This document shows positions 17,230 through 58,246 of a stretch of DNA of 64,000 nucleotides, piece by piece. The stretch comes from an uncultured Clostridia bacterium. Lineage in GTDB: Bacteria; Bacillota; Clostridia; Christensenellales; UBA1242. Every line of letters begins with the position of its first letter. Positions within the stretch are counted from its first letter, which is position 1. The DNA lies in the NCBI GenBank assembly GCA_934748015.1, contig CAKVHF010000001.1:80918-144917 (forward strand). The letters run 5' to 3'. The notes below the pieces were generated by a model, which was not told where the DNA came from, made no database searches, and was given only the letters and a program-made list of their open reading frames with translations. A program made the translations under genes and the position numbers.

Positions 17230-17295
17230 ATGAGAAAGAAATTAGTTGCTATTATTGTATTATTCCTAGGTGCAATTATGTCACTTGTAGGATGT
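17230..17295 (+). other. Lipoprotein signal peptide with lipobox L-V-G-C (Cys22)
   Basis: MRKKLVAIIVLFLGAIMSLVG|C: positively charged n-region, hydrophobic h-region, [LVI][ASTVI][GAS]C lipobox. Cys codon at 17293-17295. Confidence 0.8.
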
Positions 17296-20200
17296 GATTG
17301 TTCCAACAATCAAGACAATATGAAGATTAGATCATCTGCAGTTGGCAATTACGAAACAGTTGCGGGCAAAGATGACCAATATTTGTTATATTGCAATACC
17401 GATGCCGAACTGGAGTATATCTTGCAGAGCAATGCTGGAAAGACCAAGATGTACAATAAGCTTGTGCTAGATGTTGAGGTTGAGGGTGTTTCCAATAATG
17501 ACAACAAGGATATTGTCTACAAAACTTCTTCCAACTGTGTTTCTTTATCATCTGTTGTGGATGGTGGCGTTACTAGGTTGACAATATCTGCAGTTGACTC
17601 GGGCTATGCTAAAATCACAATGTCATCCAAGGTGTATGGCTTGGTAGAGAAATCGGTTGAGGTCTATGTGGAGAAGGCTACTGCTATTATGAATGCCAAG
17701 GACGATATGGCTGTAGCAGATGGCGGAGTCCTTAATCTTAACGATTTGGCAACTCAAGACAAGTTTATAGAGTATACAGCTAACACAACCAAGACTGATG
17801 TTGAGGTTGCGATTGCATACAATGCACTTGCATCAGATGCAGCTAAGCAAGCCTTGAGAGAGGTTGTAGAGCAGTATATAACAATTGCTAATGGCAAAAT
17901 TACTGTTGCCGATGGAACAGCCAATGCATTGCGTAACACAGTACTTGCTAATACTAAGTTGCCTATCACTGTAAGAAATATTACATCCAATATCTATATG
18001 AAGGATGCTGACGAAAATACAGTACATTGGGTTGAGATTGTAGAATTGACCAAAGTAGCCAATGTGTATATGAACAAGTTGGACGGAAATAGCAAAATCA
18101 AACTAGAGTCGTTTGTTAACGATGGTTCGGTTGGTGCAGATTACTACGAAGTAAGGTTGGTTAATACATCCGATCTTACAGGTACAAGTAGTTACAATAC
18201 ATATCTTACATCTCGTAACCTTTACTTTGCTGGACTAGATAGTGGCAACACTGTATGGTTTAATTCGGATACATATTCATTTGATGTTGTAGGCTCTAGT
18301 TCACCAATTTCCAATTCTCTATATATTTCACCTAATATAGATGATACTAAGAAGTTGTCAATGAGTGTTACAGCAAGCAAGTTGCAAAACATTAATACTA
18401 TTAAATTTGCAATTGATTACAAAGAATATCCGGGTCTATTTACTCAGTATATATATATCAAATTTATCAGAATGCAAGTTCCTACCGAGAATGATATATA
18501 TCTTAATAGTGAGTTAGACTTAAATAGATTCGTTGTATACAACAAGGATACATACAATACAGGCCGTGTAACAGGTAGTGTATTAGAAGTTAGTACAACA
18601 AGCCAATTTATCGGCATGAGCTATAGATATTCGCTATCTATGGATAACAATGGCGGATTATATAACAATGTTGATTACGAGAATAATCCAGATTATATCC
18701 AAACTGGTAGCAATGCTCTTATCAATGTAAGAAGATTGACAGGCGTAGATTATACATCTGACGAAGATATAAGCCAAAAGAATAAATTATATGTTTCACA
18801 TAATTTTGATAACCTGGCTAGTTTTGGTGGAAAAATTACTTTAACAATTCAGTTGACTTACGATCTGTCTGGCAACAGCAGTAATGGTGCAGAATATGAT
18901 AAGTTCTATGTTACTAAGTCTATCGATCTTAGTCTAGTGCAGGGTTTGACCAAGGAAAATATAGAAGGTAGTTTCTTAAGGGATGAGTTTGTGCTAGATG
19001 TAACAGATTATCAAGACAAACAAGTATACAAACTTTGGACGCCAGGTGCGGATCTAAAGGTGTCTGATTATATCAATTGGACAACCAGTACAGGTGCTGT
19101 ATACAACCGGAGATATTTTACTCTAGATGTTATAACCGAACAAGTTAATGGTGTTGACCAACAATATCTTATCTTAGTTCCTAACCAAGAATATTTAACA
19201 ACCTCTGGCAAAGAGAGATTAACTCTTAACTTTATCAACGGAACATCTGTTAATAAGTTTGTAGAATGTGTAATTCCATTTATGTTTGGTGATAGCGATG
19301 GCGGTGTTGCGATTGCGTATAACGAACAAGATTCCGCATTTATGTACAAGGGATCGCTACTAAGCGAAGCCGTATTTAAGGGTAATAGTGCTTATTGGCA
19401 ATTGTTTGATATGCAGGATGCAGACACTGCATGGACTAGATATCAAGAATATATCCAACATGACCAAGATGGGGATACTATAAGCGGTTATACTTATACA
19501 ACTCTACACAATCTAGTTATTGCCAAAGGCTCTAGTCTAGCACTTAGTGTCCAGAACTATATGTATAAGATGACTGGTCAAAGTCTAGGAATAGAATTTT
19601 ATAATATCCCAGTAGACAATAACTTAAGAATTAATATCCGTAAGAAATATAGTTTGCAAGGTTACTCTGGTGGTAAATTAAATGCAAGCAATACAATATC
19701 CAACCGTAACAATCCAGATGTTGTAGAGATAACATACTCGGGTTATGCTTATGTAACAGACAATGGTGTTAAGTCTTTGAAGCCAATTACATTTACTCAA
19801 AATATTTTAGTCTGGGTATATGATAGCATCCAATCTATCGAACTTAACAGAGACAATACTACGTTGTATGATTATCGTACAGTAGGTGCATTTAGACAGA
19901 GCAATAGTATGTACGAATTGTCTTACTCTGTTAATCCAGCAATAACCAACTTGGGTGGTGTGGCTACCGACTCTGACAAGGGTGATGGCGTAAGTATTCG
20001 TTGGGGATTCTTCAAGAAGAATATTGAAAATCTTACTAAAGATGAAAAAGACGAACTAGGAAAGCTTAATGGCTTAGACTCACAAAAATTCAAAGCACTA
20101 ATGGATAAGTATATTATTGCAGATACCCAATACACAGTGGATACAGGCAATAGTAAAGCACAATTTTCTCTTAATGAAGTATTGTATTTACAGCAGGTTA

Positions 20201-23200
20201 ATGGTGAGTTGCGCTTGATATTTAATATGTCTAATGTAATAGACCGTTTGAACAAATCAAATATCAGTGACCAAGACATATATGATGCTATATTTGGTAA
20301 AGACAATACATCTAAGAAACTAGACTTGGCAATTGTTGCTGAGCAATTTAGTTCTCGTAGAGCATTAGACTATGTTACTCTTACTCTTACTGCTGCCAAC
20401 ATGGTAGATAAGGTTGTGCTAAGTAATATTGTCAATGATGGCGTATCTAGTGCGGTAGAAGATGATGGCTTGTATGCGGAGCAGAGAAATATCACTAATA
20501 GCAATAACATCTACGATATCAATTATGTTATAACTGGCAAAGATGCCAATAGAGCAATATATAACACCAATGTAAGATTGCAATATGGCAATTCTACAGC
20601 GGTAAATGGCAGAAATGTGTTTGAGATTGTAGATGAAAATGGCAATGTTTTGGTTGATGCCAATGGCGTTGCAACTAATTATTTCAAGAACAATTCTTAT
20701 CATGCATACATCAGACTAACTGGTGTTCCTGGTACTCAGATATTGTATATTTCTAGCGAAGACTCCTTTACAATAGTAAATGAAAACATTGTAAGAGATA
20801 ACTCTAAGACTATTAGTTACACAATCTCGGTTAGCGATGGTTCGGCAGAGTATCCTTATAGGATATACAATGTAAATGACTACGCTAGGATGTTGCAAGA
20901 TATTAGAAATGATAATTACTATCACTATACAATTGTAAGAGATATCAATCTTAGCAATGATACTCGATTTAGTCCTAGTGCGTTGAGTGACATCAATGTT
21001 GTTAACGGATCGGGTAAAACATTTGCCATAAACGGTAAATATAGTTATACATCTATGTCTGGTGAGGTTATTAACAACGCTAGACACAAGATCATGTTAG
21101 ATTGGTCTAATGCAACTATCTCTACCTCTGACACAGTTAATTCCTTTGGTCTATTTGCATCTATCAGTGGTGTAAAGATTACCAATGTAACACTTTCAAT
21201 CAATGCTAATATCTTAGCAAAAATAGATAATGATGCCTATATTGGTGGATTTGCTGGTAAGATTAGCGGAAGTAGTGAGTTGATCAATTGTCAGGTTGAG
21301 GGTACAATCCTATATACTGAGTTAACAACTAGCATTAACGGGAAAACTGTATATCTTGGCTCTATGGCAGGCGAGGTTGTCGATAGTAAAGTGTATGTAG
21401 ACGAGGTTAAGCAATTTGGTCAAAACTTTGATGTCTACACCAATATCAAGTTATATAGACAGAAGTCTGACACTACTGGTGTATCTAATACCATCGTTAA
21501 CAAAATGATGATTGGTGGTGCATTTGGTGCTATCACTAATAGTGATCAAACTAAAGGTAAATATAGCGGATTGTCTGTATTTGCACAGATAATTGAAGCA
21601 ACATATCTTGATGGTATATTAAGCACTGATAACGGAAGTTATATTGGTGGCGTAGTTGGCTCTGCAGGAAATGCAAAACTTACTAATATCGAGTCTTATC
21701 CATATATCCGAGCTACACGCAATGTAGGTGGTATGGTAGGAACAATGAGTGGCTCAAATATATCCCTATCTAAGGTTTACTTCATAAGTAATTACAGCAA
21801 CGAGAAGTCAGTTACAGCAATTGATGCTAGCGATATGGTTGGTGGCATGGTTGCTAATGCTGATGGTAATAATAATACAATCGAGTATTCTTATGTTCGT
21901 GGTTTCAATCGCAATAATCCTGATGGTAAGAACTATCTAGGTGATATGCATATTCCATCTAATACAGTTTCCTTTGGTGGCTTGGTTGCCAATATAGGAA
22001 GTGGAAAGTTAATAATTGATCGTGTGTACTTTGATGCAACAATCGGCTTCAACGGGTTGACAACAAAAAGTAGTAAAAATGATGCTAAGAACGTACTTAT
22101 AGGAAATGCTAATGAAAATAATTGCAACTTTGCTAGCAATGTTACAGGTGCATACGCAATTGTTAGAACTAACTTTCCCGATCAAATGACATACAAAGAG
22201 ACTGGATCAACAACATTTATAAGTAATTATTTAACTAGTTTTGGCAAAAATGGCTATCTATATATCAATGGTCAAGAGATTACTTACAGTCTTAATTCTA
22301 CCATAACTGACGGATTAGGCATTAATGCAAACAATAACAATAATACTTATGCATGGTTCTATAATAAAAATTATGCAGATGTCAACAATAGACATCCAAT
22401 GTTGTTGTATCGCAACACAGTATTGTACGATATCATCCCATCCGGTATTGATATTAAGATCCAAACTGACACAGTTAGAAATAATAACCTTGGCTGGTTG
22501 ATTGTAAATAATGACACTGATAATCCAAACAGAAATAGTCAAGTAATTATATTCCATAGTTCCAATTCAGAAGGCAAAACAAATAGATATGTTAACAAGT
22601 ATGTAATTGGTGTAACCAAGGAAGGGAATACTAACTTCAATACTGCAGATGGTTATACATATAACAACTTTATTGCACTAGAATTGCTAGGTAGTGTGAT
22701 TAAGACTGATTATATTAAGTTAATGGCAAAAGATGGCTTTACATTGTCAGTTAAGGGTAATGATACTGGCATTATCTCTATAGATGGCAACATTATTACA
22801 ACCAATGGCTATGGCAGAGTAACACTAGTTGTATCTTATCTATTAGATAGTTCTATCTATGCCGAGATTGAACTTATTGTATATAGCAATATTTACAAGA
22901 TGAATATGACATATACAACAGATAGCCTTAGTAGGGCAACCGATCTTAAAGACACAACTAACAAGGTATTTGTTAACGAAGAGATGTATCTAACTGCTAA
23001 TGTAGTTAATATGTACGATGGTGGCTTTATTGCTCAGAATATCTATTTTGATGTTGAAACAGATATGGGTGCAAGACTAGAAATATTGAAAGATTCTGGC
23101 AAGTTCACATATGCAGGCACAACATACTCTTATGATGAAAATGATAAAGATAATAACTATATATATATAGATAGTATATTAACTAATCGTATCTTCACAA

Positions 23201-26200
23201 TTACTCCAGTAGAGAACAAGAACATCATATTCAATATCACACCTTACTACACAGTTGATACAACTAAGGTTATGGTTGATAGCAGATCTGCAGACTATAC
23301 TATTAAGGTTAGTGCAAGAGCGACAAGTATTGTTATCAATGGCAACAAGACTAGTGCTGAGTTATCTGCTATCGGTACTCAGAACCTAGAATTGGCTATT
23401 ACAACAGCCAATGTGGTTGAGGAAAACGGCAAGTACAGATTGAAAAATCATTCTTTCAACATGTCTGTATACTCCAAAGTATCCAACGAATTAATTGGAA
23501 CAGTTAATAATGTATGTGAACTGGTTGATGAAGTTAAGAATGCAACATTTACACTTGACGAAATTACAGAATTCGACAACATTGTATTTAGCAACAATTA
23601 TTTCAAAGATACACTTATGAATGTTAAGTTGACAGGAATTAAAATTTCTGCAACAGGTAACAACGATTATGTTGTAACATATTATCTATCACTTGTGTTT
23701 AACAAGACAGAGTATCAACGCAACTACAGCACTATCAATATGATCAATGCTGATTATCACATTGTATTTACTCCTAGTTCCAATAGTACAATTGATACTG
23801 TATTCGATTGCAAAATCAAATTAAACAATCCAGTAGATATAGACTTCAATTTCTATACCAATGCGGAGACTAAAGACGGCGAGTTTAACCCACAAGAGGT
23901 TGAGAGTAAATATATTGCACCGGGCAGAAATGGACTTATTAAGTTGCAAATATTTGAAGATTTCAACTCTGCCGATCGTATTGATATGTATTTTGATACC
24001 AACTATCTACAATACATCAGTTACAATCAGATGACTGCATTGACTAGTGTAATTGCTACTAACAATATGGCATATATCACTGGCTATAAAGATATCGAAC
24101 CATATCTTATCTATGAAAATGGTCGTGCAATAGGTATAAGACTAGACAATATTACTTCTACCTACGGCAATACCGAGTTCTTTAACAATATATTCTATAT
24201 TAAGTTGAAGATGCAGAACGAAACTCCTGCAAGCCTAATTGCTAGTGACAAATATCTAGATATTACTATCAAGGCATACGATTATAATGGTCAGCAAGTT
24301 ATGACAGATAGATCGGAGAGATTGATTATTGAGACTCTTCCTGTTGCAGATATCTCCATTGACGGCACAGACTTGACAGTTCTTGAAGTAGGCGACTACA
24401 AAGAGATCGTTTGGGATGCTTACAATTACAACACTTTGCCAGAGGATGAAGTTGACGGCAAATATGGTGTTAAGGTTAATGTAAAATATGCTTATGATGA
24501 ATTAAAAGATTATATGTTCGTAGTAGATGAGGCAGGACTAGAGGCTTATATCAACCTTAAGAGGGACGATATCAGCGACACTGATCGTGCTAAATATCAA
24601 GATATCTTGACTAAATATATCTCTGCTGAAGAGTACACATTCTATATATCTAACACTAACGTTAAGGACAAGTACTATCTAGTGTCTAGGGCAGATATAA
24701 TGGATAGTGATATCGATGATCCATACAGATATATGTATGATCGTATGGATGCCAACGGTAACAGCATGACTATTGAGAAATATTGTTATGCATCTATTAT
24801 TATCACTCTTAGTGTTGAGAAGACCATCAATAATACTATCGAGGTTGCAACTGACGAGGTTGGTGTACAATTAGTACCAGTAGAACTTAAAGATTTGAGC
24901 CTTACTGGACACACAGAGGTGGGTAACGAGCATACATTCCAGGTTCTTAACGGAACATACACAGGTCTTGGCTTTGATATTAACAAAGAGAGCATAAGAT
25001 CTATCGAGGGTGAGTATTCTTACGAGGCTTACAATAATAAGAATGCCGGCAATGGTGCAGAACTAAAAAATTATGATTACTTCTATTACAATGGCAAGTA
25101 CTACAATATTGCTGATTATGCTGACAAAGTATATAGCATCTACAAGGTAAATTCTGATGATCTAATTTGGACTAGAGAATCTGCTGATGGCAAGACTATT
25201 CCAGACAACTATTATTATCTATATAGTTCGGTTGATAAGGGTGAGATATATCAGGCAGTATATGTTAAGATTAACTTTGCAGACGATGCCACAACCAACA
25301 GATATGACCGTATAGATAGTGGCTATTATGGTATTAATGGAATGACTATCAACAATAGTCAAGCAAGATTTAGTTATATTGATGACAACCAAAATGCTGT
25401 TATCGCTGGTTATGGTGAAGACAATGTATATGTATACTACTTTGTGTACAATGATGCCAAAAGAGGACAAAGTATTGCTCTAGTTAAGAGGTTGGAGGGC
25501 AATCAAGGCTTCAGTTATTATAACGAACAAGATGTTCCAGTAACAACTGGCAATACTCCTGAGGTTATCACTGCAGGTTGGTACAACGTTGGCAGTTCGG
25601 AATTCTTGAAATTATTCCCTACTATCACTCAATCCAGTGTCAGATCATCTACACTTAATAGATTTGTAGATGTATTAACCGAATATGGATATAACTATGA
25701 ATTATCCACTGATAACAGTAAGATTGAATATGTAGATCGTACTGATCTAAATAATGTAATCTATCATACAATCATTGATGTTAGTGACCCTACTGCAGTT
25801 ACTTCTTATCTATATGGATATACCAATGTTAAGTTCATCAAGAACCAGTTTGGTAAATATATCAACTACAATAGTAGATATATCAATGTAGATGAATCTA
25901 GAGGCAAGATATATTGCAAGGATGAAGTGCAAGGTGATATCAACACACCTGCAACATATGGCACAATTGCTAACTATTATGCTGATATGGGTAACAATAA
26001 CTATGCACTTATCGCTAGTACATACACAACAACTAGTGTTGCAACTACAACAGATTATTATCGTTACAGAATTGCAGACTTCACAACACTAGAGAAGGAG
26101 AGATTTACTCTTAGCGGTATATCTGTATTTACAGTAGACAAAGATGGTAATAAAGATTATGTAGTTGACTCTAGGGCTAACTTCTATTATCTTGACTCAG

Positions 26201-45633: not shown

Positions 45634-45677
45634 AAAAAAAAGATTGAGAAATATTACTCATTTCTCAATCTTTTTTC
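45634..45677. terminator. Bidirectional rho-independent terminator between convergent genes
   Basis: A8 run, aagattgagaaat / atttctcaatctt 13-bp perfect stem with a 7-nt loop, then a T6 run. Can serve both the giant gene (+) and the 45706-47055 gene (-). Confidence 0.85.
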
Positions 45678-45705
45678 TGTTATAGTAGGCTTATTTGACT
45701 ACTAT

Positions 45706-48650: not shown

Positions 48651-48700
48651 ATTATTGTTTTTTGCGTAGAGTCACAACTTTGGGAGCAAAATAGCACAAG

Positions 48701-48738
48701 AAATAGACATATTGATACTTGATATGTCTATTTTTTTT
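48701..48738 (+). terminator. Rho-independent terminator after the carboxypeptidase gene
   Basis: aaatagacatat / atatgtctattt stem with a 9-nt loop, then a T8 run. Confidence 0.75.
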
Positions 48739-48756
48739 GTTTTAAGTTTGTTTTCG

Positions 48757-52000: not shown

Positions 52001-52591
52001 AATGGTAAGACTATTAAGCCTACCGTTAAGAACAAGAACAACGTTACTCAGACAGTAAGTGTTGATGGCGACCAATACTCATTCAATGCTACACAAGGTA
52101 TCTATACTATTACTTACAAGGAAGGTTCTGTTACTAAGACATATACTATCTATGTAGGTGATACCGATGCTCCAGTATTGACTTGGAAGAAAGAAATCCC
52201 ATCTACTATCAAACTTAATGAGAAATGGGGTAAGGGCATTAAAGACATGTATGAGATCACTGATGTTAAGAACGGTGAGACTTCTACAATAACAGATTCT
52301 GTTGTAACTATTACTAATCCAGATGGTGCTAAGAAGACTATCGATGGTTCTAGCGATTATACTTTTGACAAAGAGGGTACTTATACTATCACAATCACAT
52401 TTGATGATGGTGTAAACGAAGAGAAAGTAACTAAGACTATCACTGTATCTTCTGACACTAAGGATGCAACTGTTAACCCAACCAATGTTGTTGGTGTTAT
52501 CCTAGTTATCGCAGCTGTACTAGTTGCAGGTGGACTAGTTGTATATCTTATCTTATCTTCTAAGAAAGCTAAGAAGAATAAAAACAAATAA
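49031..52591 (+). CDS. Large secreted Ig-repeat surface protein (1,186 aa) with C-terminal TM anchor and Lys-rich tail
   Basis: N-terminal signal-like segment VLLSVCLVFAFLC...VFAESP. At least eight G-x-Y-x-[IVL]-x-[YI] strands typical of DUF5011/HYR-like Ig domains: GVYTLDIH, GRYTFIYS, GTYHVVYTATY, GVYTIQYSVTDGNN, GMYTVSITAKDMGDN, GTYKITYDCKDNSGN, GIYTITYKEG, GTYTITITFDDG. C-terminus VVGVILVIAAVLVAGGLVVYLILSSKKAKKNKNK. Confidence 0.85.
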   Translation: MKGNKILKQISKVLLSVCLVFAFLCTPITKFFGKVAKVFAESPSELTDITGANVKVEGFKGSGEVGKGIALPTVKVNGGSSINVTEENAGLVYDVKTSTGKTVTTDTTFAKIRKGIADLGEDTNKYYLVSTVEGVYTLDIHTVEDDKLQTVVKGLQINVTKADASIAVSSTSVVANGTNGIVLPAKISLAKIKSEDFKMPLPTLHKDGKIENVVVKCIPAGSTSEAAKVLEPIKDTDGNITHFAFKAEDRTALNSKGRYTFIYSYIANGTKLCADAKITCEVADNDKYLDDITLAMSTTITDPELKSGNIGIEYSLPTATVYNSKSGSTDAIPAVVTIKVTPASNIANAKVKLDGYKLTVDTIGTYHVVYTATYPYSDKKVERNFVVEMKDEISPEVMFVEGYDRDAYFTSHTDATETDFVESLVDKTDVIKSIYVLAGDSVTINIPAIYAKDNSTDGKYTFTRTITKTDNNTVDIEEDSNKAATFAATTEGVYTIQYSVTDGNNKQAIAKKSILVVKQATLSDVNAIDETSHTIVEASKPKVTTGTTPRTVKSDGTFSIAVPTATDTITTQLKEKFTRLKSSSIAWTSKVELTTTLVAYDSTDQKVDGKSYEFTKDDIDENGKYTIDMKKVFGTDELAGVAYFKVITTASTDWMTSLGLEKKTVESSKITYVKSATDTNASTIAFAEFGGETTLAGILSKKNATTIAKTIDRYENGKNHEGCTFTATIENNGMLRDSNGHYIAPFNQYSAENSAKVAFPDLLITDAEDGTQLSVTGTITDSLGNTKTFVPTIDRINLLSGTGYQYYVTLGEFELTTAGMYTVSITAKDMGDNYSVYSFGVMVNDTTSPSDIVLDTDLVGESTISKTYYTGEFISFPEAKIVDNVDENCEYTAKLTDYPEGARLTENVFNGGFTTLTAGTYKITYDCKDNSGNEFSKTYSLEVTAKDHTTIIVDESLFEDNFTYAFDDSKITNEITIPGGTASNTVDPEINGKTIKPTVKNKNNVTQTVSVDGDQYSFNATQGIYTITYKEGSVTKTYTIYVGDTDAPVLTWKKEIPSTIKLNEKWGKGIKDMYEITDVKNGETSTITDSVVTITNPDGAKKTIDGSSDYTFDKEGTYTITITFDDGVNEEKVTKTITVSSDTKDATVNPTNVVGVILVIAAVLVAGGLVVYLILSSKKAKKNKNK

Positions 52592-52628
52592 TTAATTCTT
52601 ATTAAAAATTAAAAAATATATCACAAAA

Positions 52629-52677
52629 TAAGACTATGTATATAAGGCCGAAATGTGCCTATACATAGTCTTTTTTT
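52629..52677 (+). terminator. Rho-independent terminator after the Ig-repeat protein gene
   Basis: aagactatgtata / tatacatagtctt stem with a 17-nt loop, then a T7 run. Confidence 0.7.
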
Positions 52678-52854
52678 GTAACTTTGCATAAGTGTAAAAA
52701 TATAAAAAATAAACGACTTCTTTCATTGCAATATTATATCTTAACCACAAATGTTGCAAAATGTAACAATTTGTCAATAATACAAAATAATTTGCCAATA
52801 TCTATATTTTATTGTAAAATACTTATAATATATATATAGGATGAGAAAAGTAAA

Positions 52855-55683
52855 ATGATTACAGCACTTGTTATTGCTTTAGCAACATGTTTGGTAGTTG
52901 GTATATCGATGGGCTTTAATGCCGTCGGTAATATATTTTTTACATGTTTATATGCCATTGCTAGATGGTTTCTAATAGTGATAGATTTTATGCAAAGTTT
53001 AGTGCGAAAACTTTGTGGATTAGATGATAAAAATGGCGATGTCTTGTTTGATACCTTTATACGATCTGAAGAAGTTAAGATTGCTCTGCTTGCAATATTA
53101 GCATTATCTATCATTTTGGTTTTTGGTTTTGCTTTGGTACAAATAATAAGACTACAATACACAACAGAGGGTGGCAAAAATGCTGTAGGTCCTCTGGTTA
53201 AGACTTGTCTAAAGTCAATATTCTTATTCTGTCTTATTCCATTTACTAGTTTCCTTGGAGTATATGTAAGCAATCAATTGCTTAAGGCTGTAGATGCTGC
53301 TACAAGTACTTCTGGTTCAACATCTATTGCTGGTAGGATATTTAAAATTGCTGCGAAAGATGCAAACCCGTATAGATCTGGTGAGGTTGAGTGGGTCTTT
53401 GTGGGCTGGGATCATGTATTTGATGTAATAGTTGCTGATGTGATGCCCGGAGGGGACACTTATGACAGAGATACGGGTATTTATAAGAAAAAGAGTGGTT
53501 ACACTAATGCAGGTGAAAGGAAAATATACATTGAAAATGGACAAATTAGTGGCTCTGATTATGTAGGACTCAGTTCAGTCAGTGCTGAACAATTGGATAA
53601 TATTTTTGCGCAAGGTATGGATAGTGCGACTAAAGTAAAAAAGTCAAATAAAGATAAAGCTGTTACTTTAAAAAATGGCGATCTATTAAATTTTTCAGAT
53701 TTTGATTCAGTATATTTCTTTTACAATATTGGAAAAATCAACTACTTTGTATTATTCCTCTGTGGCTGGTATTTGTTTAAAACATTGATAACAATTCTTT
53801 TTGGCTTAGTAATGAGGATATACAAGGTATCAATATTGTTTATTATATCCCCATATCCGGTTGCCCTCACAGTGTTAGATAATGGATCGGCACTTAACAA
53901 ATGGAAAGGTAAATATTTAGCTGAATTGTTCTCTGCTTATGGGTCCATTGCTGGATTAAATCTTTTCCTTACATTAATCCCAATAATTGATAAAATTAAA
54001 CTATATTACGGAAGTGCATGGTATATTTCATTGTTTAATGATTTTGTCCAAATAATTTTCTTGTTAGTTGGCTGTTTGATGATTAAAGATATCGTTGGCA
54101 TAATATCCGAATTTGTAGGCGGAGGCAATGTCCTAAGCCAAGGTGAAGGTATGCAAAAACAGGTAGGAGATATTGCTAAGAAAGCAGGATCAGCTGCTGT
54201 AGGTGTTGCAATGGGTGGTATTGCACTTGCCAAAGGTGCTGCAGGAACAATAGGTGCTGCTATTAATACTCACAATGCAAATAAAGCTGCCGGTGAAATG
54301 GCTAGTGAACAAGAAAAGATAGATGCAGCAAACAAGGAAGTTGACGATTTAGTAAATAGTGATGAAAATCTTAAAACTTATGAAAGTGATAAATCGGAGT
54401 TAGCTTCTAGCCAAGATCGTCTTGCGTCTTATAACACACAAATTGAAGAAATGAAAAACAAGGCTGGTGGTAAACCACTAAAAGGAAAAGCCAAGAAAAG
54501 ATACAATCAATTGATTGCAGATCGTGATGCAGAGCAGGACAATGTTAACGCTTTACAAAGTAAGATCGAAGGCGTGGAAAAGAGTGATAACTTCAAAAAG
54601 TATCAAGATCTAAAGGCAAAGGCTGCACGTGTGTCTGAGGAAAGCGGAAAAATCATTGAAGAGAAGAAGAAAGCTATCAGCGGTTATACTGATGAAAATG
54701 ATGTATATCATGAAGGTTATCAAGATAAATTCTTTAAACATCAAACTGGAGCATTGCAAGGTAGGCAAATGATGCTTAACATGATAGGCTCTAACAAAAT
54801 TGTTCAAGGAGTTAATAAAGCGACAAATGGATTGCTTACATCAAAAGGAAGAAAGGATCTAACAAAACAAGTATCAGAGATGAGTGATGATGCCGCTGTT
54901 GTTGTAACAGGAAATACTAAAAGAGCGCAAAATGTTGCACTTTCTAAAACATCATCTTTTAAAGGTCATGGTATCCCAAAAGTAAAGGATGGCAAGATTG
55001 TAAGAGATGAGAACGGAAATCCAGTAATGGTTGGTGCTAGTAAAAATATTAGTAGAAATCCGTTTAGATCAGGGGTTGCAGGTCTAACGCAAGGTGGCTT
55101 GTCTTCAAGAGTTGCTAAATTTAGTAATTTTGAAACTATGCAAGAACAAGGGAAACAAGTTGGTGCTGCAATAGATGAAAAATCTTTAAACGATTTGGCT
55201 AACACAATAAAGGATGTATTTACTAATGCACAAAAAGGTACTCTTAGTGATGTGGCTATAGATAACTTGATTGCTAACAAATCTGATTTTGTAGAATCTG
55301 CTGGAGTTTTTGGTGGTGCAGATGCTGAAAAAGCAATGAGTGCAATGATAAATGCATTGGAAAAATCAAAAAATACAACTGATAGTAAGCAAAAAGCAGA
55401 GTTGGTGAATGAAGCAAAGAATAGTGCTCAAAAAGTGAAAGTTGAATCATTTGCTAAGATTGATCAAGATAGTATTAGACAAATGAAAGAAGCTATTAAG
55501 AGTGCTACCTTGCAGAAGTCGGTTGCTAACAAGGATTATGGAGCAGCACTTGACAAGGTTGTATATAAGGCTATGGTTAAGGCTCAAGAACATACTCAAA
55601 ATGTCAAGAACGATCCAAAAACCGAAAACATTATTCCACAATTGTTAAGAGAATTGTTGAATGAAACAAGAAAGAAGAAATAA
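52855..55683 (+). CDS. Polytopic membrane protein (942 aa): 8-9 TM segments plus about 500-aa coiled-coil/low-complexity C-terminal tail. VirB6/TrbL-like topology, unknown function.
   Basis: Four N-terminal TM helices, an approximately 160-aa hydrophilic loop, four or five more TM helices, then a Gly/Ala-rich segment (AAVGVAMGGIALAKGAAGTIGAAI). The tail is Lys/Glu/Ala/Asn-rich with heptad-like stretches. Confidence 0.8.
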   Translation: MITALVIALATCLVVGISMGFNAVGNIFFTCLYAIARWFLIVIDFMQSLVRKLCGLDDKNGDVLFDTFIRSEEVKIALLAILALSIILVFGFALVQIIRLQYTTEGGKNAVGPLVKTCLKSIFLFCLIPFTSFLGVYVSNQLLKAVDAATSTSGSTSIAGRIFKIAAKDANPYRSGEVEWVFVGWDHVFDVIVADVMPGGDTYDRDTGIYKKKSGYTNAGERKIYIENGQISGSDYVGLSSVSAEQLDNIFAQGMDSATKVKKSNKDKAVTLKNGDLLNFSDFDSVYFFYNIGKINYFVLFLCGWYLFKTLITILFGLVMRIYKVSILFIISPYPVALTVLDNGSALNKWKGKYLAELFSAYGSIAGLNLFLTLIPIIDKIKLYYGSAWYISLFNDFVQIIFLLVGCLMIKDIVGIISEFVGGGNVLSQGEGMQKQVGDIAKKAGSAAVGVAMGGIALAKGAAGTIGAAINTHNANKAAGEMASEQEKIDAANKEVDDLVNSDENLKTYESDKSELASSQDRLASYNTQIEEMKNKAGGKPLKGKAKKRYNQLIADRDAEQDNVNALQSKIEGVEKSDNFKKYQDLKAKAARVSEESGKIIEEKKKAISGYTDENDVYHEGYQDKFFKHQTGALQGRQMMLNMIGSNKIVQGVNKATNGLLTSKGRKDLTKQVSEMSDDAAVVVTGNTKRAQNVALSKTSSFKGHGIPKVKDGKIVRDENGNPVMVGASKNISRNPFRSGVAGLTQGGLSSRVAKFSNFETMQEQGKQVGAAIDEKSLNDLANTIKDVFTNAQKGTLSDVAIDNLIANKSDFVESAGVFGGADAEKAMSAMINALEKSKNTTDSKQKAELVNEAKNSAQKVKVESFAKIDQDSIRQMKEAIKSATLQKSVANKDYGAALDKVVYKAMVKAQEHTQNVKNDPKTENIIPQLLRELLNETRKKK

Positions 55684-55859
55684 GTATAAATAATGAAATG
55701 AATCGAAAAGGCAGATGTAGGTAAGAAATTATAAATGTTGTTGTGATTTCGATATTGACATCTGCTTTTCGTTACATGTATAATATAGTTGAAGAAATTG
55801 ATAAATCTTAAACAATTATAGTTATACAATGTACTAGTTTATAACAAGGGGAGTTAGTT

Positions 55860-56792
55860 ATGATAACTACTGTTACAGATAAGATTAGTTTAAGGAAAAT
55901 ACGTTATGATGTTATATCTCACCTAGAGATGTTAGATTTTTTGACTAAAATTAATGATTTTTTGGACAATAAAGACAAGCTTAAAGATAATCAAGCATAT
56001 TGGGTAGAATTGCTTAGAACTGCAAACCTTGATATTTCCGAAAAAGATTTTGACAAAGTATGTGAAATGTTGCAAAAGTATGTTGAAGAGCATAATGATA
56101 TTGACAATATTGAACATCTGCCAATGCTTGATTATGCTAACGAGTACATTGATGTATTGTCTGATGATTTGTCTACAGATGAGGATATTGCAAAAGCCGA
56201 AAATAGACTTAACTCGTTTCTGCTACAGATGAGTGAAATAACTATGCTTCAGAACAAGATGATAGATTCGGCAATTGATACAATGAACATTGATGAAGAA
56301 GGTAACCTTGTAGATGATTTTACAGGTCATATAATCGTAAGTGTATATACTATTAACAAAGATCCAGAACTTGCTAAGATAGAGAGTGTAGAGAAGAAAA
56401 CAACAATGTATATAGCTCGTACGATTGTTAAGAAGCAGAGGGAGTTTGCTAATTCGCTAGACTTTGATGATGATGGTTATTATGTTGCTCCTGATGGGAC
56501 TGAACTATTTAACGATGAGGACAAAGAAACTCTAGAACAAGAGGTAATGGAGTGGAAAGTAAGGCTACTTAACATATCTGATGAAGATATTAAAGAGTAT
56601 TATGGAGAAGAGTCTAAAGACGAAGATGTAGGTAAATCTGATGATATAGAAGATGATGAAATAGCAGAGTTAAATAGTATAGATGATGACGTTTCTCTTG
56701 CAAAAACAGAGATTAATGAAGCATCTAAGGAAAGAGTGGAGAGGTTGCAGAATTCACTAAAAGCATCAGCTAACAAAATAAAGAAATACTAA
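55860..56792 (+). CDS. Highly acidic hypothetical protein (310 aa), no signal peptide
   Basis: GGGGAG RBS 7 nt upstream. Asp/Glu-rich throughout (DEDVGKSDDIEDDEIAELNSIDDD). No recognisable motif. Confidence 0.7.
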   Translation: MITTVTDKISLRKIRYDVISHLEMLDFLTKINDFLDNKDKLKDNQAYWVELLRTANLDISEKDFDKVCEMLQKYVEEHNDIDNIEHLPMLDYANEYIDVLSDDLSTDEDIAKAENRLNSFLLQMSEITMLQNKMIDSAIDTMNIDEEGNLVDDFTGHIIVSVYTINKDPELAKIESVEKKTTMYIARTIVKKQREFANSLDFDDDGYYVAPDGTELFNDEDKETLEQEVMEWKVRLLNISDEDIKEYYGEESKDEDVGKSDDIEDDEIAELNSIDDDVSLAKTEINEASKERVERLQNSLKASANKIKKY

Positions 56793-56806
56793 GGAGGATA
56801 AATGTT

Positions 56807-58246
56807 ATGGCAAAAAGTATAGATCAAATAGCTGCTATGGCTTTAACTAAGATGGGTGGTCTTGGTAAAGTAATGGGCTTGAGAAAAAATATTGATATGG
56901 CACTAGAAATGTATGGGCAATTTCTTGAATTACTAGCTCTAAGAATTAATGAACAAAAGGGCGATTATAAAGATGTTTTAAGAAAAAAGGAAGCCCCTCA
57001 GAAAAAAGCTGAAATTGAAAAGCGAGAAAACAAAGAAGTTCGTAAAAAAGAAGCTGAAACCGATCGAATAATGCGTGAGCATGGCATACACAGATTGCAA
57101 GAAATGCCTCCTAAGCCAAAGTCCAGAGAAGAGCTAGAGAAGTACAAAAACAATGATCGTAAGTACATAGATAAGAGACTGCCTGCTTATGACACTAGTA
57201 GCCCTGTATATCAGGCTAGTCTTGCAAAATGGGAAAAAGACAAGAAAGAATGGGATAAACAGAATGCAGAGTATCAAAAGCAAAAAGCTTTCTATAGTCA
57301 ATTTATAGGCAAGACGCCTGAAGAAATCACTGCAGTTGTGGTTGATGCTATCCAAAAGGACAAGACAAGTAAGATAAACATCAATGTTATGGAAGCAATG
57401 GATAGTATGGCTAAGCATTATACTGCTGGCAAACTAGAGTCTAACAATGCAGGTGGTATGCAGATAGAGAATGGTAACATGATTATTAACAATCTAGTTA
57501 ATGCAATGGTTGATCCTAACTCATCTCTTCCTTACGAGTGTGTGCCTACTAGTCATGTAAAGTTGATATTGGATGCAATGCCTAGAGAGAAAAACGGCAA
57601 AACAATGTTGGGTGATGCCAAAGTTCCACCAAAACAAGATTTGTCACAATGCGGTCTTGATGGACTTATTATGTTTGCAATAGACCAGATATATTCTCAG
57701 ATGCCAGCACAAGACTTGGTCAAGGATGGTGCTCAGCCTAAGCAGTACGATATGGTTAAGCAGATGTTTGAGGCGTATAAGACCAAAGAGGTGTCAATGG
57801 ATGCTGTCGCCAACTCCAAAGATGTATATAGTATTGCAGAAGACGTAATCACTAATGCAAGAAAAGAGCAAGAAAAAGCCAGAAAAGAAAAAGAAGAAGC
57901 AGAAATGATTGCTAGCAAAGAAGAGGCTGAAAGCATGGTTAGATCTGATGAGGAAAACGCTCAGATTGAAACCGATCGTAGACATGCTAAGCAAGCAAAT
58001 TTGAAAGAAGAATTAAGTCAAAAATTTGACAAGGACAGCCTAGAAGCGTATAGAGCGAAAAAGGCAAAAGCAGAAGAGGTAAAAATGCAAGACGCCTTGG
58101 CAAAAGCTGAAAGAGAAAATCTAGGATTGGATGTCAAAGGTGGTGCTAGTCAGCCAACTGCTCCTACAACACCAACTGCTCCAACTACTCGTAATGCACC
58201 TAATGCACCAGAAAGAGAAGACGAAAGTGAAATGGGTCAGGAGTAA
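56807..58246 (+). CDS. Charged hypothetical protein (479 aa), Lys/Glu coiled-coil segments, Pro/Thr/Ala repeat near the C-terminus
   Basis: AAGGAGG RBS. Starts 14 nt after the previous stop, so probably co-transcribed. KKEAPQKKAEIEKRENKEVRKKEAE... C-terminal PTAPTTPTAPTTRNAPNAP. Confidence 0.75.
   Translation: MAKSIDQIAAMALTKMGGLGKVMGLRKNIDMALEMYGQFLELLALRINEQKGDYKDVLRKKEAPQKKAEIEKRENKEVRKKEAETDRIMREHGIHRLQEMPPKPKSREELEKYKNNDRKYIDKRLPAYDTSSPVYQASLAKWEKDKKEWDKQNAEYQKQKAFYSQFIGKTPEEITAVVVDAIQKDKTSKININVMEAMDSMAKHYTAGKLESNNAGGMQIENGNMIINNLVNAMVDPNSSLPYECVPTSHVKLILDAMPREKNGKTMLGDAKVPPKQDLSQCGLDGLIMFAIDQIYSQMPAQDLVKDGAQPKQYDMVKQMFEAYKTKEVSMDAVANSKDVYSIAEDVITNARKEQEKARKEKEEAEMIASKEEAESMVRSDEENAQIETDRRHAKQANLKEELSQKFDKDSLEAYRAKKAKAEEVKMQDALAKAERENLGLDVKGGASQPTAPTTPTAPTTRNAPNAPEREDESEMGQE

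What the first reader, a model, noticed from the sequence alone, without database searches (positions are those of the whole stretch)
17230..58246. 41-kb envelope gene neighbourhood wedged between core genes tkt and plsX: candidate novel surface-fibre system
**Seen in sequence**
- Between two housekeeping blocks (alpha operon-tkt, and plsX-rnc-smc) lie seven genes.
- Six have no assignable function. Of the seven, five carry envelope signatures and two encode soluble, highly charged proteins.
- The seven are: the giant lipoprotein; an N-anchored repeat protein; a D,D-carboxypeptidase; a 1,186-aa Ig-repeat protein with a C-terminal TM anchor; a 942-aa polytopic membrane protein with a long cytoplasmic coiled coil; and two soluble, highly charged proteins translated from one operon.
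- Each unit has its own terminator.
- Composition and codon style look the same as the flanking core genes.
- I see no integrase, transposase, tRNA or flanking direct repeat.

**Inference**
- The block is a resident, lineage-specific cell-surface module rather than a recent mobile island.
- A plausible working model has four parts: the polytopic protein plus charged partners as a membrane platform or export-anchoring machine, the two large beta-rich proteins as exposed fibres, the carboxypeptidase as local wall remodeller, and the NlpC/P60 tip as effector.
- None of this corresponds to a described secretion, pilus or S-layer system.
Basis: inference. Interest (0 to 1): 0.72.

Follow-up and report, generated by a model that had tools for sequence, protein, structure and literature searches.

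The report
Orphan VirB6 gene beside giant lipoprotein
A conserved chromosomal block in uncultured gut Clostridia pairs a 9,461-residue surface lipoprotein with a membrane protein derived from the type IV secretion (conjugation) channel, so it is a new variant of a known machine and not an unknown secretion system.

Summary
The seven genes are real and at the stated coordinates. They have core-like composition, no mobility genes, and a hairpin/T-run after each unit.

Six of the seven recur in the same order, always upstream of plsX-rnc-smc, in at least six or seven related uncultured Clostridia species. These six are the giant, dacA, g1186, g942, g310 and g479. The giant is 9,459-9,645 aa wherever its full length is visible. 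The 449-aa gene is species-specific.

The claim that nothing matches a described secretion system fails.
- The 942-aa protein passes curated cut-offs of two mycoplasma-ICE conjugation-channel families.
- Its more distant homologues sit between T4SS pilin and VirB4 genes, next to VirD4, in about 20 sister species.
- Its best fold matches, though weak, are VirB6 of plasmid R388.

The window holds no VirB4, VirD4 or pilin. Two lineage-restricted cytoplasmic proteins occupy the position VirB4 has elsewhere. Together with the VirB6 tail they form a strain-level divergence hotspot.

The giant carries 64 GLUG motifs and a sub-threshold NlpC/P60-like end.

Best reading: a resident, T4SS-derived contact module. 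Two things are unproven: whether the giant and the VirB6-like protein work together, and whether the genome truly lacks the ATPases.

The parts
17116..17144 (+). Perfect sigma-70 consensus promoter (TTGACA-17-TATAAT) 86 nt upstream of the giant gene
17230..45615 (+). Giant lipoprotein gene, 9,461 aa. It has a lipobox LVGC at aa 19-22 and an Asn/Gly/Tyr/Ile/Val-rich composition. No Pfam family reaches E 0.01.
   Evidence: Orthologues are 9,459, 9,556 and 9,645 aa.
35227..43389 (+). GLUG-motif-rich part of the giant (aa ~6000-8720). It holds 49 of the 64 'xVGG[IV][AV]G' motifs, spaced about 26-55 aa apart, and is presumably a beta-solenoid.
   Evidence: 64 motifs found, 0.5 expected in shuffles; weak Pfam Glug hit. 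The L003 orthologue scores above the Glug cut-off.
45250..45612 (+). C-terminal NlpC/P60-like (papain-fold) cysteine peptidase candidate. It has DCFGFV...48 aa...KHVAIY preceded by LPGAVV.
   Evidence: Concordant sub-threshold hits on the same 65 aa: Pfam NLPC_P60 E 0.0038 and CHAP 0.077; NCBIfam MepS 0.071; PHROG tail hydrolase 0.064; PDB Spr 0.8. The motif was read. The structure model failed.
45636..45677 (.). Bidirectional hairpin with flanking A/T runs between the convergent giant and g449 genes
45706..47055 (-). g449: N-terminally anchored, acidic 449-aa protein. It is species-specific and not part of the conserved set.
   Evidence: no family. Present only in the window and strain L001. 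Other species carry 0-4 small CxxC lipoproteins here.
47469..48650 (+). PBP5-type D,D-carboxypeptidase (Peptidase_S11 + PBP5_C) with a signal peptide
   Evidence: Conserved at this position in all type-A loci.
48699..48738 (+). Hairpin plus T-run after dacA
49031..52591 (+). g1186: signal peptide, roughly 1,100-aa Thr-rich ectodomain with weak Ig/PKD-like hits, C-terminal TM segment and Lys-rich tail. It is the best conserved of the unknown proteins (43-59% identity across species).
52630..52678 (+). Hairpin plus T-run after g1186
52855..54120 (+). g942 N-terminal polytopic domain (aa 1-422). It is VirB6 / mycoplasma-ICE channel family, with about 7-8 TM helices and a roughly 155-aa outside loop.
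   Evidence: NCBIfam NF045848 123 bits (cut-off 90) and NF045889 82 bits (cut-off 70); 44 invariant columns shared with T4SS-locus homologues
54121..55683 (+). g942 C-terminal helical Lys/Ala/Glu-rich tail. Positions 54250-55225 cannot be aligned with the same gene in a strain whose flanks are 98-100% identical.
   Evidence: The same tail hypervariability occurs in T4SS-locus homologues.
55755..55784 (+). Perfect sigma-70 consensus promoter (TTGACA-18-TATAAT) for g310-g479. It overlaps the 3' arm of the hairpin after g942 (55710-55768).
55860..56792 (+). g310: acidic cytoplasmic protein with invariant motifs RKIRYDV and DFDDDGYY..DG.E.F. It lies directly downstream of the VirB6-like gene in every type-A locus.
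   Evidence: No family or PDB match.
56807..58246 (+). g479: charged cytoplasmic protein with a conserved core at aa ~155-345. Its start codon is 14 nt after the g310 stop codon. Only 7 clusters exist among 1.84 billion representative proteins.
   Evidence: No family or PDB match.
58277..58305 (.). Hairpin with flanking A/T runs after g479, upstream of plsX

Best explanation
**What it is**
- The interval is a vertically inherited envelope locus of one sub-lineage of uncultured, low-GC gut and rumen Clostridia. NCBI labels these 'uncultured Christensenella sp.' or 'Clostridia bacterium'.
- Its diagnostic component is g942, a member of the T4SS VirB6 (channel/platform) family.

**How it relates to sister lineages**
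- In sister lineages the orthologous gene sits in a compact chromosomal T4SS cluster: large secreted protein, VirD4, 1-4 T4SS pilins, VirB6-like, VirB3/VirB4 fusion, then a roughly 1,600-aa protein.
- In this lineage the VirB6-like gene has been uncoupled from those genes. It is followed instead by two lineage-restricted cytoplasmic proteins, g310 and g479, which diverge together with its tail.
- It lies next to an Ig-like type-I membrane protein, a PBP5-type carboxypeptidase and a roughly 9,500-aa GLUG-repeat lipoprotein ending in a papain-fold / NlpC/P60-like domain.

**Proposed mechanism (inferred, not shown)**
- The locus keeps the cell-contact half of a Gram-positive conjugation-type machine.
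- The giant lipoprotein reaches out from the membrane, adheres, and cuts peptidoglycan at its tip. This combines the roles of an adhesin and a VirB1-type hydrolase, as PrgB plus PrgK or mycoplasma-ICE CDS14 do.
- The VirB6-like protein is the membrane conduit or platform. Its variable cytoplasmic tail is read by g310 and g479.
- The energising ATPases are either lost (slightly favoured) or encoded elsewhere.

**Shown versus inferred**
- Shown: family membership of g942, conserved synteny, absence of ATPase genes from the 64-kb window, and co-divergence of g942, g310 and the 5' end of g479.
- Inferred: any physical or functional coupling between the giant, g1186, dacA and g942.
For: **g942 belongs to the VirB6 family**
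- g942 scores 123.4 bits on NF045848 (MMCAP2_0566 conjugal transfer family; cut-off 90) and 82.2 bits on NF045889 (Mbov_0396 ICE TM protein; cut-off 70).
- Its distant homologues (25-33% identity over the TM domain, 44 invariant columns) lie between T4SS_pilin and VirB4 genes, next to VirD4, in about 20 species.
- Six of the top ten Foldseek PDB hits of the model are TrwI/VirB6 chains, with probability 0.38-0.84 (five of them 0.66-0.84).
- In a tree of the TM domains the window-type genes form one clade among the T4SS-type clades.

**Synteny**
- The order giant-dacA-g1186-g942-g310-g479-plsX-rnc-smc holds in L001, L002/L010, L003/L012, L013/L040, L028, L037 and L039.
- Each genome assembly shows one locus type only.

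**g310 and g479**
- They are restricted to these loci. The one exception is a g310-like ORF downstream of a VirB6-like gene in L014.
- g479 has 7 clusters among 1.84 billion representatives.

**Co-divergence between strains**
- Synonymous divergence (dS) is 0.5 to above 1.6 in g942, 0.55 in g310 and 0.88 in g479 aa 1-80. In the flanks it is 0.03-0.04. dN/dS stays below 0.4 throughout.
- The same tail hypervariability is seen in T4SS-locus VirB6-likes whose VirB4 is 99-100% identical.

**ATPases**
- No VirB4, VirD4 or pilin is found in the window.
- No close VirB4 cluster (about 62% identity or more) carries the contig-length fingerprint of the window's 1,084,506-bp scaffold or of the other type-A contigs.

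**Background from the literature**
- Gram-positive MPF-FA VirB6 homologues are 700-900 aa with extra domains, VirB1 homologues are membrane-anchored with outside hydrolase domains, and mycoplasma ICEs need a surface lipoprotein (PMC12857230; PMC6030558).
Against: - Each gene or gene pair has its own promoter and terminator, so there is no operon-level link between the giant and g942.
- The flanking core genes are syntenic too, so the conserved order could be inertia within one family-level clade.
- The giant and g1186 have no homologue in the complete T4SS loci. The large proteins of those loci lack GLUG motifs.
- The NlpC/P60 assignment is below threshold. The C-terminal domains of orthologous giants do not align with it.
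- Absence of VirB4 and VirD4 from the genome is not shown. The homologue lists were cut at 120 hits, at about 62% identity.
- The fold match to VirB6 is not statistically significant (E about 1) and the model is only moderately confident (pLDDT 65).
Confidence: 0.55

Rival explanations
1. Neighbours without a common function. The giant adhesin, the housekeeping carboxypeptidase, the Ig-like membrane protein and a left-over VirB6-like gene are independent genes. They have stayed side by side only because this small clade has undergone little rearrangement around plsX-rnc-smc.
For: - The transcription units are separate, each with its own promoter and terminator.
- The flanks are equally syntenic.
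- dacA is an ordinary PBP5-type enzyme.
- No homologue of the giant or of g1186 occurs in the T4SS loci.
- The slot between the giant and dacA varies freely between species.
Against: - The VirB6-like TM domain keeps all family-invariant residues and shows dN/dS of 0.11, so it is not a decaying remnant.
- g942, g310 and g479 move and diverge together.
- The set survives across species whose g942 orthologues are only 35-44% identical, while an adjacent slot turns over.
Confidence: 0.28
2. Scattered but complete T4SS. VirB4, VirD4 and the pilin genes are encoded elsewhere in the genome, as in the Rickettsiales rvh system. g942 would then function in an ordinary ATP-driven conjugation or effector-translocation machine, and the giant lipoprotein would be its adhesin/hydrolase.
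For: - The VirB6-like domain is fully conserved, and its tail shows the same hypervariability as in complete T4SS loci.
- The VirB4 searches could not exclude a VirB4 below about 62% identity.
- Scattered T4SS genes with enlarged VirB6 paralogues are known in Anaplasma and Rickettsia (PMC7648143, abstract listed).
Against: - No VirB4 cluster in the two lists lies on any contig longer than 0.67 Mb, whereas g942 lies on a 1.08-Mb scaffold.
- None of the six type-A assemblies showed a second VirB6-like or T4SS locus.
- Moving a gene out of the middle of a pilin-VirB6-VirB4 cluster while the rest stays functional is unparsimonious.
- g310 and g479 occupy the exact position of VirB4 but are unrelated to it.
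Confidence: 0.25
3. Contact-dependent antagonism locus. The giant lipoprotein would be a polymorphic toxin-like fibre whose variable C-terminal peptidase attacks the wall of neighbouring cells. The variable small exported proteins encoded next to it (g449 here, CxxC lipoproteins elsewhere) would be immunity factors.
For: - The C-terminal domains of orthologous giants differ: NlpC/P60-like here, and a 'Q..NAAC...H' papain-like motif in L010, L012 and L028.
- The adjacent slot holds 0-4 unrelated or fast-evolving exported proteins.
- L012 and L028 share both the end type and the 362-aa lipoprotein.
Against: - The small genes are on the opposite strand.
- L010 and L039 have none.
- The shared pattern in L012 and L028 may simply reflect relatedness.
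- None of the proteins matches a toxin, immunity or defence family.
- No conserved pre-toxin boundary motif was found.
Confidence: 0.1
4. Recently acquired mobile island or decayed ICE inserted between tkt and plsX.
For: It contains a gene of a conjugation family.
Against: - GC, GC3 and codon usage equal those of the core genes.
- There is no integrase, transposase, relaxase, tRNA or flanking repeat.
- The same location and order are found in several species.
- No plasmid homologue was found.
Confidence: 0.03

Closest known systems
Extended VirB6 homologues of Gram-positive MPF-FA conjugation systems (Orf15 of Tn916, TcpH of pCW3, ConG of ICEBs1)
   Same: Both have a polytopic N-terminal domain with a large outside loop, followed by a long, poorly structured or helical extension, for a total of 700-900+ aa (PMC12857230). 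Distant homologues of g942 occupy the VirB6 slot between the pilin/VirB3-like genes and VirB4.
   Different: g942 has no VirB4, VirD4, VirB8-like or relaxase gene beside it. No sequence match to plasmid-borne homologues was found, and no Pfam family matches. It is followed by two unrelated cytoplasmic proteins.
Mycoplasma ICE (MICE) channel module plus CDS14 surface lipoprotein
   Same: g942 passes the curated cut-offs of the two NCBIfam models built on MICE membrane proteins. MICE conjugation needs a surface lipoprotein that is proposed to promote donor-recipient contact (PMC6030558), and here a lipoprotein gene lies in the same neighbourhood. MICEs also lack VirB1- and VirB8-like parts (PMC12857230).
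   Different: MICEs are mobile, carry a DDE transposase and encode TraG/VirD4 and TraE/VirB4. This locus is fixed in the chromosome and has none of these. The lipoprotein here is about 9,500 aa, and the organism has a cell wall (dacA).
Rickettsiales rvh T4SS with scattered genes and enlarged VirB6 paralogues
   Same: VirB6-family genes are separated from other T4SS genes, and some carry very large extensions (PMC7648143 abstract).
   Different: Those genomes keep VirB4, VirB11 and VirD4. They are diderm Proteobacteria, and the extensions are part of VirB6 itself, not a separate giant lipoprotein.
VirB1-type wall hydrolases of Gram-positive T4SS (PrgK, TraG of pIP501, Orf14 of Tn916; CHAP or NlpC/P60 domains)
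   Same: Both are membrane-anchored proteins with an extracellular papain-fold peptidoglycan peptidase domain (PMC12857230). The giant has a lipid anchor and an NlpC/P60-like Cys-His end.
   Different: The giant is 10-30 times larger and carries a GLUG-repeat region. Its hydrolase match is below threshold and is not conserved in sequence among orthologues.
Giant non-fimbrial adhesins (for example SiiE of Salmonella; from my own knowledge also Ebh of Staphylococcus)
   Same: A single polypeptide of many thousand residues, beta-rich and surface-exposed, among the largest genes of its genome (PMC6272769 abstract).
   Different: There is no T1SS partner, no LPXTG motif and no obvious tandem domain repeats. 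The protein is anchored by a lipid at its N-terminus and ends in a peptidase-like domain.
Entry-exclusion specificity pairs TraG-Eex (SXT/R391), TraG-TraS (F) and ConG-YddJ (ICEBs1). This comparison rests on my own knowledge and was not checked in the library.
   Same: A short variable region of the VirB6-family protein defines allelic specificity groups together with a partner protein. Here the tail of g942 and the adjacent g310 and 5' end of g479 exist as deeply diverged haplotypes within one species.
   Different: Known exclusion partners are small membrane proteins or lipoproteins of the recipient cell. g310 and g479 are soluble and cytoplasmic. No transfer function is demonstrated here.

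Membership tests
T4SS VirB6 family (NCBIfam NF045848 / NF045889; Gram-positive extended VirB6) | Match to a curated family model above its cut-off | tested here: met
   NF045848 123.4 bits (cut-off 90) and NF045889 82.2 bits (cut-off 70), over aa 249-423
T4SS VirB6 family (NCBIfam NF045848 / NF045889; Gram-positive extended VirB6) | Polytopic membrane domain (5 or more TM helices) with a large extracytoplasmic loop | tested here: met
   About 7-8 hydrophobic helices in aa 1-421 and a loop at aa ~140-295
T4SS VirB6 family (NCBIfam NF045848 / NF045889; Gram-positive extended VirB6) | Gene lies in a T4SS cluster next to VirB3/VirB4 and VirD4 | tested here: not met
   Not met in the window. Met for homologues in about 20 sister species.
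T4SS VirB6 family (NCBIfam NF045848 / NF045889; Gram-positive extended VirB6) | Fold similarity to solved VirB6 (TrwI of R388) | tested here: inconclusive
   Six of the top ten Foldseek hits are TrwI chains (five with probability 0.66-0.84, one 0.38), but E is about 1 and TM-scores are 0.28-0.43. Model pLDDT is 65.
T4SS VirB6 family (NCBIfam NF045848 / NF045889; Gram-positive extended VirB6) | Required for substrate translocation | not testable with these tools
   Needs genetics in a cultured strain
Complete T4SS / integrative conjugative element | VirB4-family ATPase | tested here: not met
   None in the 64-kb window. At genome level this is unresolved: no VirB4 at about 62% identity or more lies on the 1.08-Mb scaffold.
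Complete T4SS / integrative conjugative element | VirD4 coupling protein, relaxase, and integrase or transposase | tested here: not met
   No such ORF in the window. g310 and g479 profiles are unrelated to VirB4 and VirD4.
Complete T4SS / integrative conjugative element | Island signatures: deviating composition, tRNA or direct-repeat borders, patchy distribution | tested here: not met
   conserved position in several species
NlpC/P60 peptidoglycan peptidases | Pfam PF00877 match above the gathering score | tested here: not met
   17.6 bits against 23, E 0.0038
NlpC/P60 peptidoglycan peptidases | Catalytic Cys at a helix start and His about 50 residues later in an 'HVxIY' strand, preceded by 'PGD/A-hydrophobic' | tested here: met
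   DCFGFV ... LPGAVV ... KHVAIY, with 48 residues between Cys and His (sequence). Weak hits from five libraries map to the same 65 residues.
NlpC/P60 peptidoglycan peptidases | Papain-like alpha+beta fold | tested here: inconclusive
   The single-sequence model has pLDDT 33 and is unusable
GLUG-motif repeat proteins (Pfam PF07581) | Repeated GLUG motif | tested here: met
   64 motif instances against 0.5 expected. Pfam Glug scores 15.1 bits here, below the cut-off of 20.5, and 24.6 bits in the L003 orthologue, above it.
Peptidase S11 D,D-carboxypeptidase (PBP5 type) | Peptidase_S11 and PBP5_C domains | tested here: met
   226.9 and 55.8 bits
Polymorphic toxin / contact-dependent inhibition systems | Variable C-terminal toxin after a conserved boundary, with a cognate immunity gene immediately downstream on the same strand | tested here: inconclusive
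   The C-terminal ends differ between species, and a variable gene slot follows, but on the opposite strand and empty in two species. No toxin or immunity family was hit.
Sortase-dependent pili / S-layer | LPXTG sorting signal, pilin domains or SLH domains | tested here: not met
   No such Pfam domains. The g1186 C-terminus has a TM segment plus a basic tail without LPXTG.

The most novel reading that the evidence does not exclude
This would be an ATPase-less machine derived from a type IV secretion system.
- In one lineage of small-genome gut Clostridia the VirB6 channel protein has lost VirB4, VirD4 and the pilins.
- It has acquired two new cytoplasmic partners in the place of VirB4.
- It now works with a roughly 9,500-residue wall-cutting lipoprotein fibre and an Ig-like membrane protein as a cell-to-cell contact and recognition apparatus.
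- Deeply diverged tail/g310/g479 haplotypes would act as specificity (kin or partner discrimination) types.
Probability: 0.15. Interest if true: 0.8.

Novelty: new variant of a known kind. Interest (0 to 1): 0.5.

Why it matters
- Nearly all known Gram-positive T4SS functions are DNA transfer, and the 2025 review read here (PMC12857230) calls other functions an open question.
- This clade of uncultured gut Clostridia offers a natural comparison. About 20 species carry a compact chromosomal T4SS cluster with no relaxase within the roughly 20 kb read. One sub-lineage keeps only the VirB6-like protein, with new partners, beside one of the largest bacterial genes.
- If the ATPases are truly absent, this would be an example of a T4SS channel protein put to another use, and it would give two orphan protein families a context.
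- If they are present elsewhere, it would be a scattered T4SS in Firmicutes associated with a giant adhesin/hydrolase.
- Either way the annotation of g942 changes from 'hypothetical' to a conjugation-channel family protein.

Tried and rejected
- **g310 + g479 as a split, degenerate VirB4 or VirD4.** Profile-profile comparison gives probability below 1% and no P-loop is present. Rejected.
- **g449 as a VirB8/TcpC-like core part.** It is absent from every other species and has no family hit. Dropped without a structure test.
- **Homology of the giant or g1186 to the large proteins of the T4SS loci.** BLAST, phmmer and tblastn found nothing, and those proteins have no GLUG motifs.
- **Pfam, NCBIfam, PHROGs, PADLOC and PDB sequence searches** for g449, g1186, g310, g479 and the body of the giant. 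Nothing significant.
- **Single-sequence structure prediction of the giant's C-terminus.** Failed, pLDDT 33.
- **Rfam scan of the window.** No match.
- **Plasmid tblastn with the g942 TM domain.** No match.
- **Positive selection as the cause of the strain hotspot.** dN/dS is below 0.4 and dS is very high, so it is an imported divergent allele.
- **Terminase_3C hit on a g479 homologue (L041).** The contig is chimeric beyond position 6428.

Full report

Yes, in the main. The ORF list gives exactly the seven genes described.

| Gene | Coordinates | Length |
|---|---|---|
| giant | 17230-45615 (+) | 9,461 aa |
| g449 | 45706-47055 (-) | 449 aa |
| dacA | 47469-48650 (+) | 393 aa |
| g1186 | 49031-52591 (+) | 1,186 aa |
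| g942 | 52855-55683 (+) | 942 aa |
| g310 | 55860-56792 (+) | 310 aa |
| g479 | 56807-58246 (+) | 479 aa |

- The left flank is rpsD-rpoA-rplQ, a 184-aa ORF and transketolase. The right flank is plsX, RNase III and SMC.
- A 28-kb ORF in 35% GC DNA cannot arise by chance. Orthologues of 9,459, 9,556 and 9,645 aa exist.
- The envelope signatures hold:
  - The giant has a lipobox.
  - g449 has one N-terminal TM segment.
  - dacA and g1186 have signal peptides.
  - g1186 has a C-terminal TM segment plus a basic tail.
  - g942 has about 7-8 TM helices in its first 421 residues.
  - g310 and g479 have no TM segment and are 34-37% charged.
- GC, GC3 and codon usage cannot be told apart from the flanking core genes.
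- There is no tRNA, no integrase or transposase ORF and no flanking direct repeat.
- Terminators: the generic scan finds no more than chance, because the stems are AT-rich. Folding each intergenic region shows a strong hairpin followed by a T-run after tkt, giant/g449, dacA, g1186, g942 and g479.
- Two perfect consensus promoters precede the giant (17116-17144) and g310 (55755-55784).
- Three sub-claims fail or weaken:
  - g449 has no detectable repeats.
  - The NlpC/P60 tip is sub-threshold.
  - g942 does have an assignable family.

**2. What is g942?**

- It passes the curated cut-offs of two NCBIfam models built on membrane proteins of mycoplasma integrative conjugative elements: NF045848 with 123 bits against 90, and NF045889 with 82 bits against 70.
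- A search of 5.8 billion proteins finds only 14 clusters.
  - The nine closer ones (35-65% identity over most of the length, or 41-44% over the N-terminal half) sit in window-like loci.
  - The five distant ones share about 30% identity over the TM domain and 44 invariant columns. They sit in canonical Gram-positive T4SS clusters: VirD4 (T4SS-DNA_transf), T4SS_pilin, the g942 homologue, then VirB4 (DUF87/AAA_10/P-loop_TraG).
- A scan of one genome per species found 28 loci, all in uncultured Clostridia or 'Christensenella sp.' MAGs from gut, rumen or caecum. Local annotation sorts nearly all of them into two types.
  - Type A (window-like): giant, a variable slot, dacA, g1186, g942, g310, g479, plsX, rnc.
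  - Type B (about 20 species): a secreted protein of 2,000 aa or more (-), VirD4 (-), 1-4 pilins, VirB6-like, VirB4 with an N-terminal VirB3-like TM segment, and a protein of roughly 950-1,900 aa without a signal peptide.
- Type B loci lie between housekeeping genes (P-type ATPase, tmk, thyX, fba). No relaxase or integrase appears in the roughly 20 kb read.
- No assembly showed both types.
- In a neighbour-joining tree of the TM domains, type A is a single clade among several type-B clades.
- An AlphaFold model built on the 14-sequence alignment is moderately confident (pLDDT 65). It is all-helical, with a long helical tail. Foldseek finds nothing significant, but six of the ten best PDB matches are TrwI/VirB6 chains of the R388 T4SS.
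- The 2025 nomenclature review describes MPF-FA VirB6 homologues as 700-900 aa with extra unstructured domains. It describes mycoplasma CDS16 as the likely VirB6-like part (PMC12857230).

I conclude that g942 is a VirB6-family protein. The only family feature it fails is genomic context.

**3. What is missing?**

- The 64-kb window has no VirB4, VirD4, pilin or large type-B protein.
- g310 and g479 stand exactly where VirB4 stands in type B but are unrelated to VirB4 and VirD4 (hhalign probability below 1%).
- To ask whether the genome has VirB4 elsewhere, I searched with two type-B VirB4 proteins and looked for the contig-length fingerprint of the window's scaffold (1,084,506 bp) and of the other type-A contigs.
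  - None of the 120 best clusters in either list carries such a fingerprint. The lists reach down to about 62% identity, and the longest contig in them is 0.67 Mb.
  - One apparent match (43,239 bp) was a coincidence.
- This result is suggestive, not conclusive. Type-B VirB4 proteins are 59-99% identical to the L004 VirB4 query, so a type-A VirB4 near 60% could have been cut off the lists.

**4. The partners g310 and g479**

- Both families are confined to type-A loci.
- An exhaustive HMMER pass over 1.84 billion representatives finds only 7 clusters for g479.
- g310 has invariant motifs RKIRYDV and DFDDDGYY..DG.E.F. The only other ORF with that motif lies downstream of a VirB6-like gene on a 4.7-kb contig, L014.
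- No family, PDB or defence-system match exists for either protein.
- I compared the window with a conspecific strain (L001).
  - The flanks are 98-100% identical in DNA.
  - The stretch 52900-57020 (g942, g310 and the first ~70-80 codons of g479) is a divergence hotspot. Positions 54250-55225 cannot be aligned.
  - Synonymous divergence is 0.5 to above 1.6 in g942, 0.55 in g310 and 0.88 in g479 aa 1-80. It is 0.03-0.04 at the giant's 3' end, g449 and plsX. dN/dS stays below 0.4.
  - This is therefore an old, divergent haplotype brought in by recombination, not point-wise positive selection.
- The same tail hypervariability (24-43% identity in 100-aa windows) occurs between type-B strains whose VirB4 is 99-100% identical. 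It is a property of this VirB6 clade that type A has kept.
- Joint divergence of the tail, g310 and the start of g479 is the best evidence that these three act together.

**5. The giant and the rest**

- The giant has no Pfam domain at E 0.01 or better.
- It carries 64 GLUG-type motifs (xVGG[IV][AV]G) against 0.5 expected, mostly in aa 6000-8720 with 26-55-aa spacing. The sequence repeats there are weak. Orthologues carry the motif too, and the L003 orthologue scores above the Pfam Glug cut-off.
- The last ~120 residues show DCFGFV, then 48 residues, then KHVAIY, preceded by LPGAVV. Five libraries give concordant sub-threshold hits to NlpC/P60, CHAP, MepS/Spr and a tail hydrolase on the same 65 residues. 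The single-sequence model failed.
- Orthologous giants end in other Cys-His motifs ('Q..NAAC ... HYV') that do not align with it.
- The slot after the giant holds g449 here. It holds nothing in L010 and L039, and 1-4 small lipoproteins with an FCDKCF/LCPTCF motif in L012, L013 and L028.
- g1186 is the best conserved unknown protein (43-59% identity) and is type-A-specific.
- dacA is an ordinary PBP5-type enzyme.

**6. How it most likely works**

- Shown:
  - The locus is resident and vertically inherited.
  - It contains a T4SS-derived VirB6-family protein with two lineage-specific, co-diverging partners.
  - The window contains no ATPase genes.
- Inferred: the locus retains the contact part of a Gram-positive conjugation-type apparatus.
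  - The lipid-anchored giant would be both adhesin and wall-cutting enzyme. Gram-positive VirB1 homologues are membrane-anchored with outside CHAP/NlpC-type domains, and mycoplasma ICEs need a surface lipoprotein for contact.
  - g942 would be the membrane platform, with a variable tail read by g310 and g479.
  - The parallel with VirB6-family exclusion determinants (TraG-Eex, ConG-YddJ) rests on my own knowledge and is only a lead.
- Against a single machine: each unit has its own promoter and terminator, the flanks are equally syntenic, and neither the giant nor g1186 has a counterpart in type-B loci.
- I put 0.55 on the T4SS-derived module reading.
- For the main rivals I put about 0.28 on unrelated neighbours and 0.25 on a scattered complete T4SS. 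The scattered-T4SS reading overlaps with the first, because it differs only in the ATPase question.
- I put 0.10 on a toxin/immunity reading and 0.03 on a recent island.

**7. Novelty and score**

- The family assignment of g942 follows from a curated model, so that part is known.
- The new elements are:
  - the conserved uncoupling of VirB6 from the ATPases;
  - the two orphan partner families in VirB4's position;
  - the association with a ~9,500-aa GLUG lipoprotein;
  - the haplotype structure of the tail.
- This is a new variant of a known kind, of moderate interest (0.5). The interest would rise considerably if whole-genome searches show that the ATPases are absent.

Noticed in passing
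L004, L006, L008, L015-L036, L038 (type-B loci): About 20 related uncultured Clostridia species carry a compact chromosomal T4SS cluster: a secreted protein of 2,000 aa or more, VirD4, 1-4 pilins, VirB6-like, a VirB3-VirB4 fusion, and a cytoplasmic protein of roughly 950-1,900 aa. The cluster lies between housekeeping genes (fba, tmk, thyX, P-type ATPase). No relaxase or integrase appears in the roughly 20 kb read, and the large proteins have no Pfam match. It may be a non-conjugative Gram-positive T4SS.
   Followed up: partly
window 54250-55225; L004 vs L032 and L006, VirB6-like aa ~500-700: The tail just after the TM domain of this VirB6 clade is hypervariable between otherwise near-identical strains, both in complete T4SS loci and in the orphan locus. 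dS is saturated and dN/dS is low, which points to old allelic types exchanged by recombination.
   Followed up: partly
L012:3207-4289(-), L013:582-4111(-), L028:2337-4438(-): A family of small lipoproteins with a conserved FCDKCF/LCPTCF (CxxC) motif occurs in 1-4 tandem copies on the opposite strand between the giant gene and dacA in other species. They occupy the place g449 has here and match no known family.
   Followed up: partly
L014:3620-4684(+): On a 4.7-kb contig of another MAG, a VirB6-like gene that groups with type-B genes is followed by a 355-aa ORF carrying the g310 motif MDFDDEGRF (HMM E 5e-5). The g310-VirB6 pairing may therefore be older than the type-A clade.
   Followed up: partly
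L041:5325-6716: A g479 homologue annotated with Terminase_3C sits on a contig that diverges from its 99.9%-identical counterpart after position 6428 and continues into phage terminase sequence. This is probably an assembly chimera.
   Followed up: yes
window 47469-48650: dacA has elevated synonymous divergence between the two strains (dS 0.24 against 0.03-0.04 in the giant's 3' end, g449 and plsX), although its protein is 99% identical. This may be a second recombination tract.
   Followed up: no
window 14252-14806: A 184-aa ORF between rplQ and tkt overlaps the tkt start by 29 nt and has no NCBIfam match.
   Followed up: no
window 13539-14042: Ribosomal protein L17 is 167 aa, with extra sequence relative to the 112-position model. 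The match is split into two stretches, and there is a weak hit to the 'sunset domain variant'.
   Followed up: no
window 58709-59788: The listed plsX ORF starts at a TTG codon and is 359 aa. Orthologues are called at 338-339 aa, so the true start is probably the ATG at 58769.
   Followed up: no
window 1-64000: No Rfam family reaches its gathering score anywhere in the window, even though the window holds large ribosomal-protein operons.
   Followed up: no
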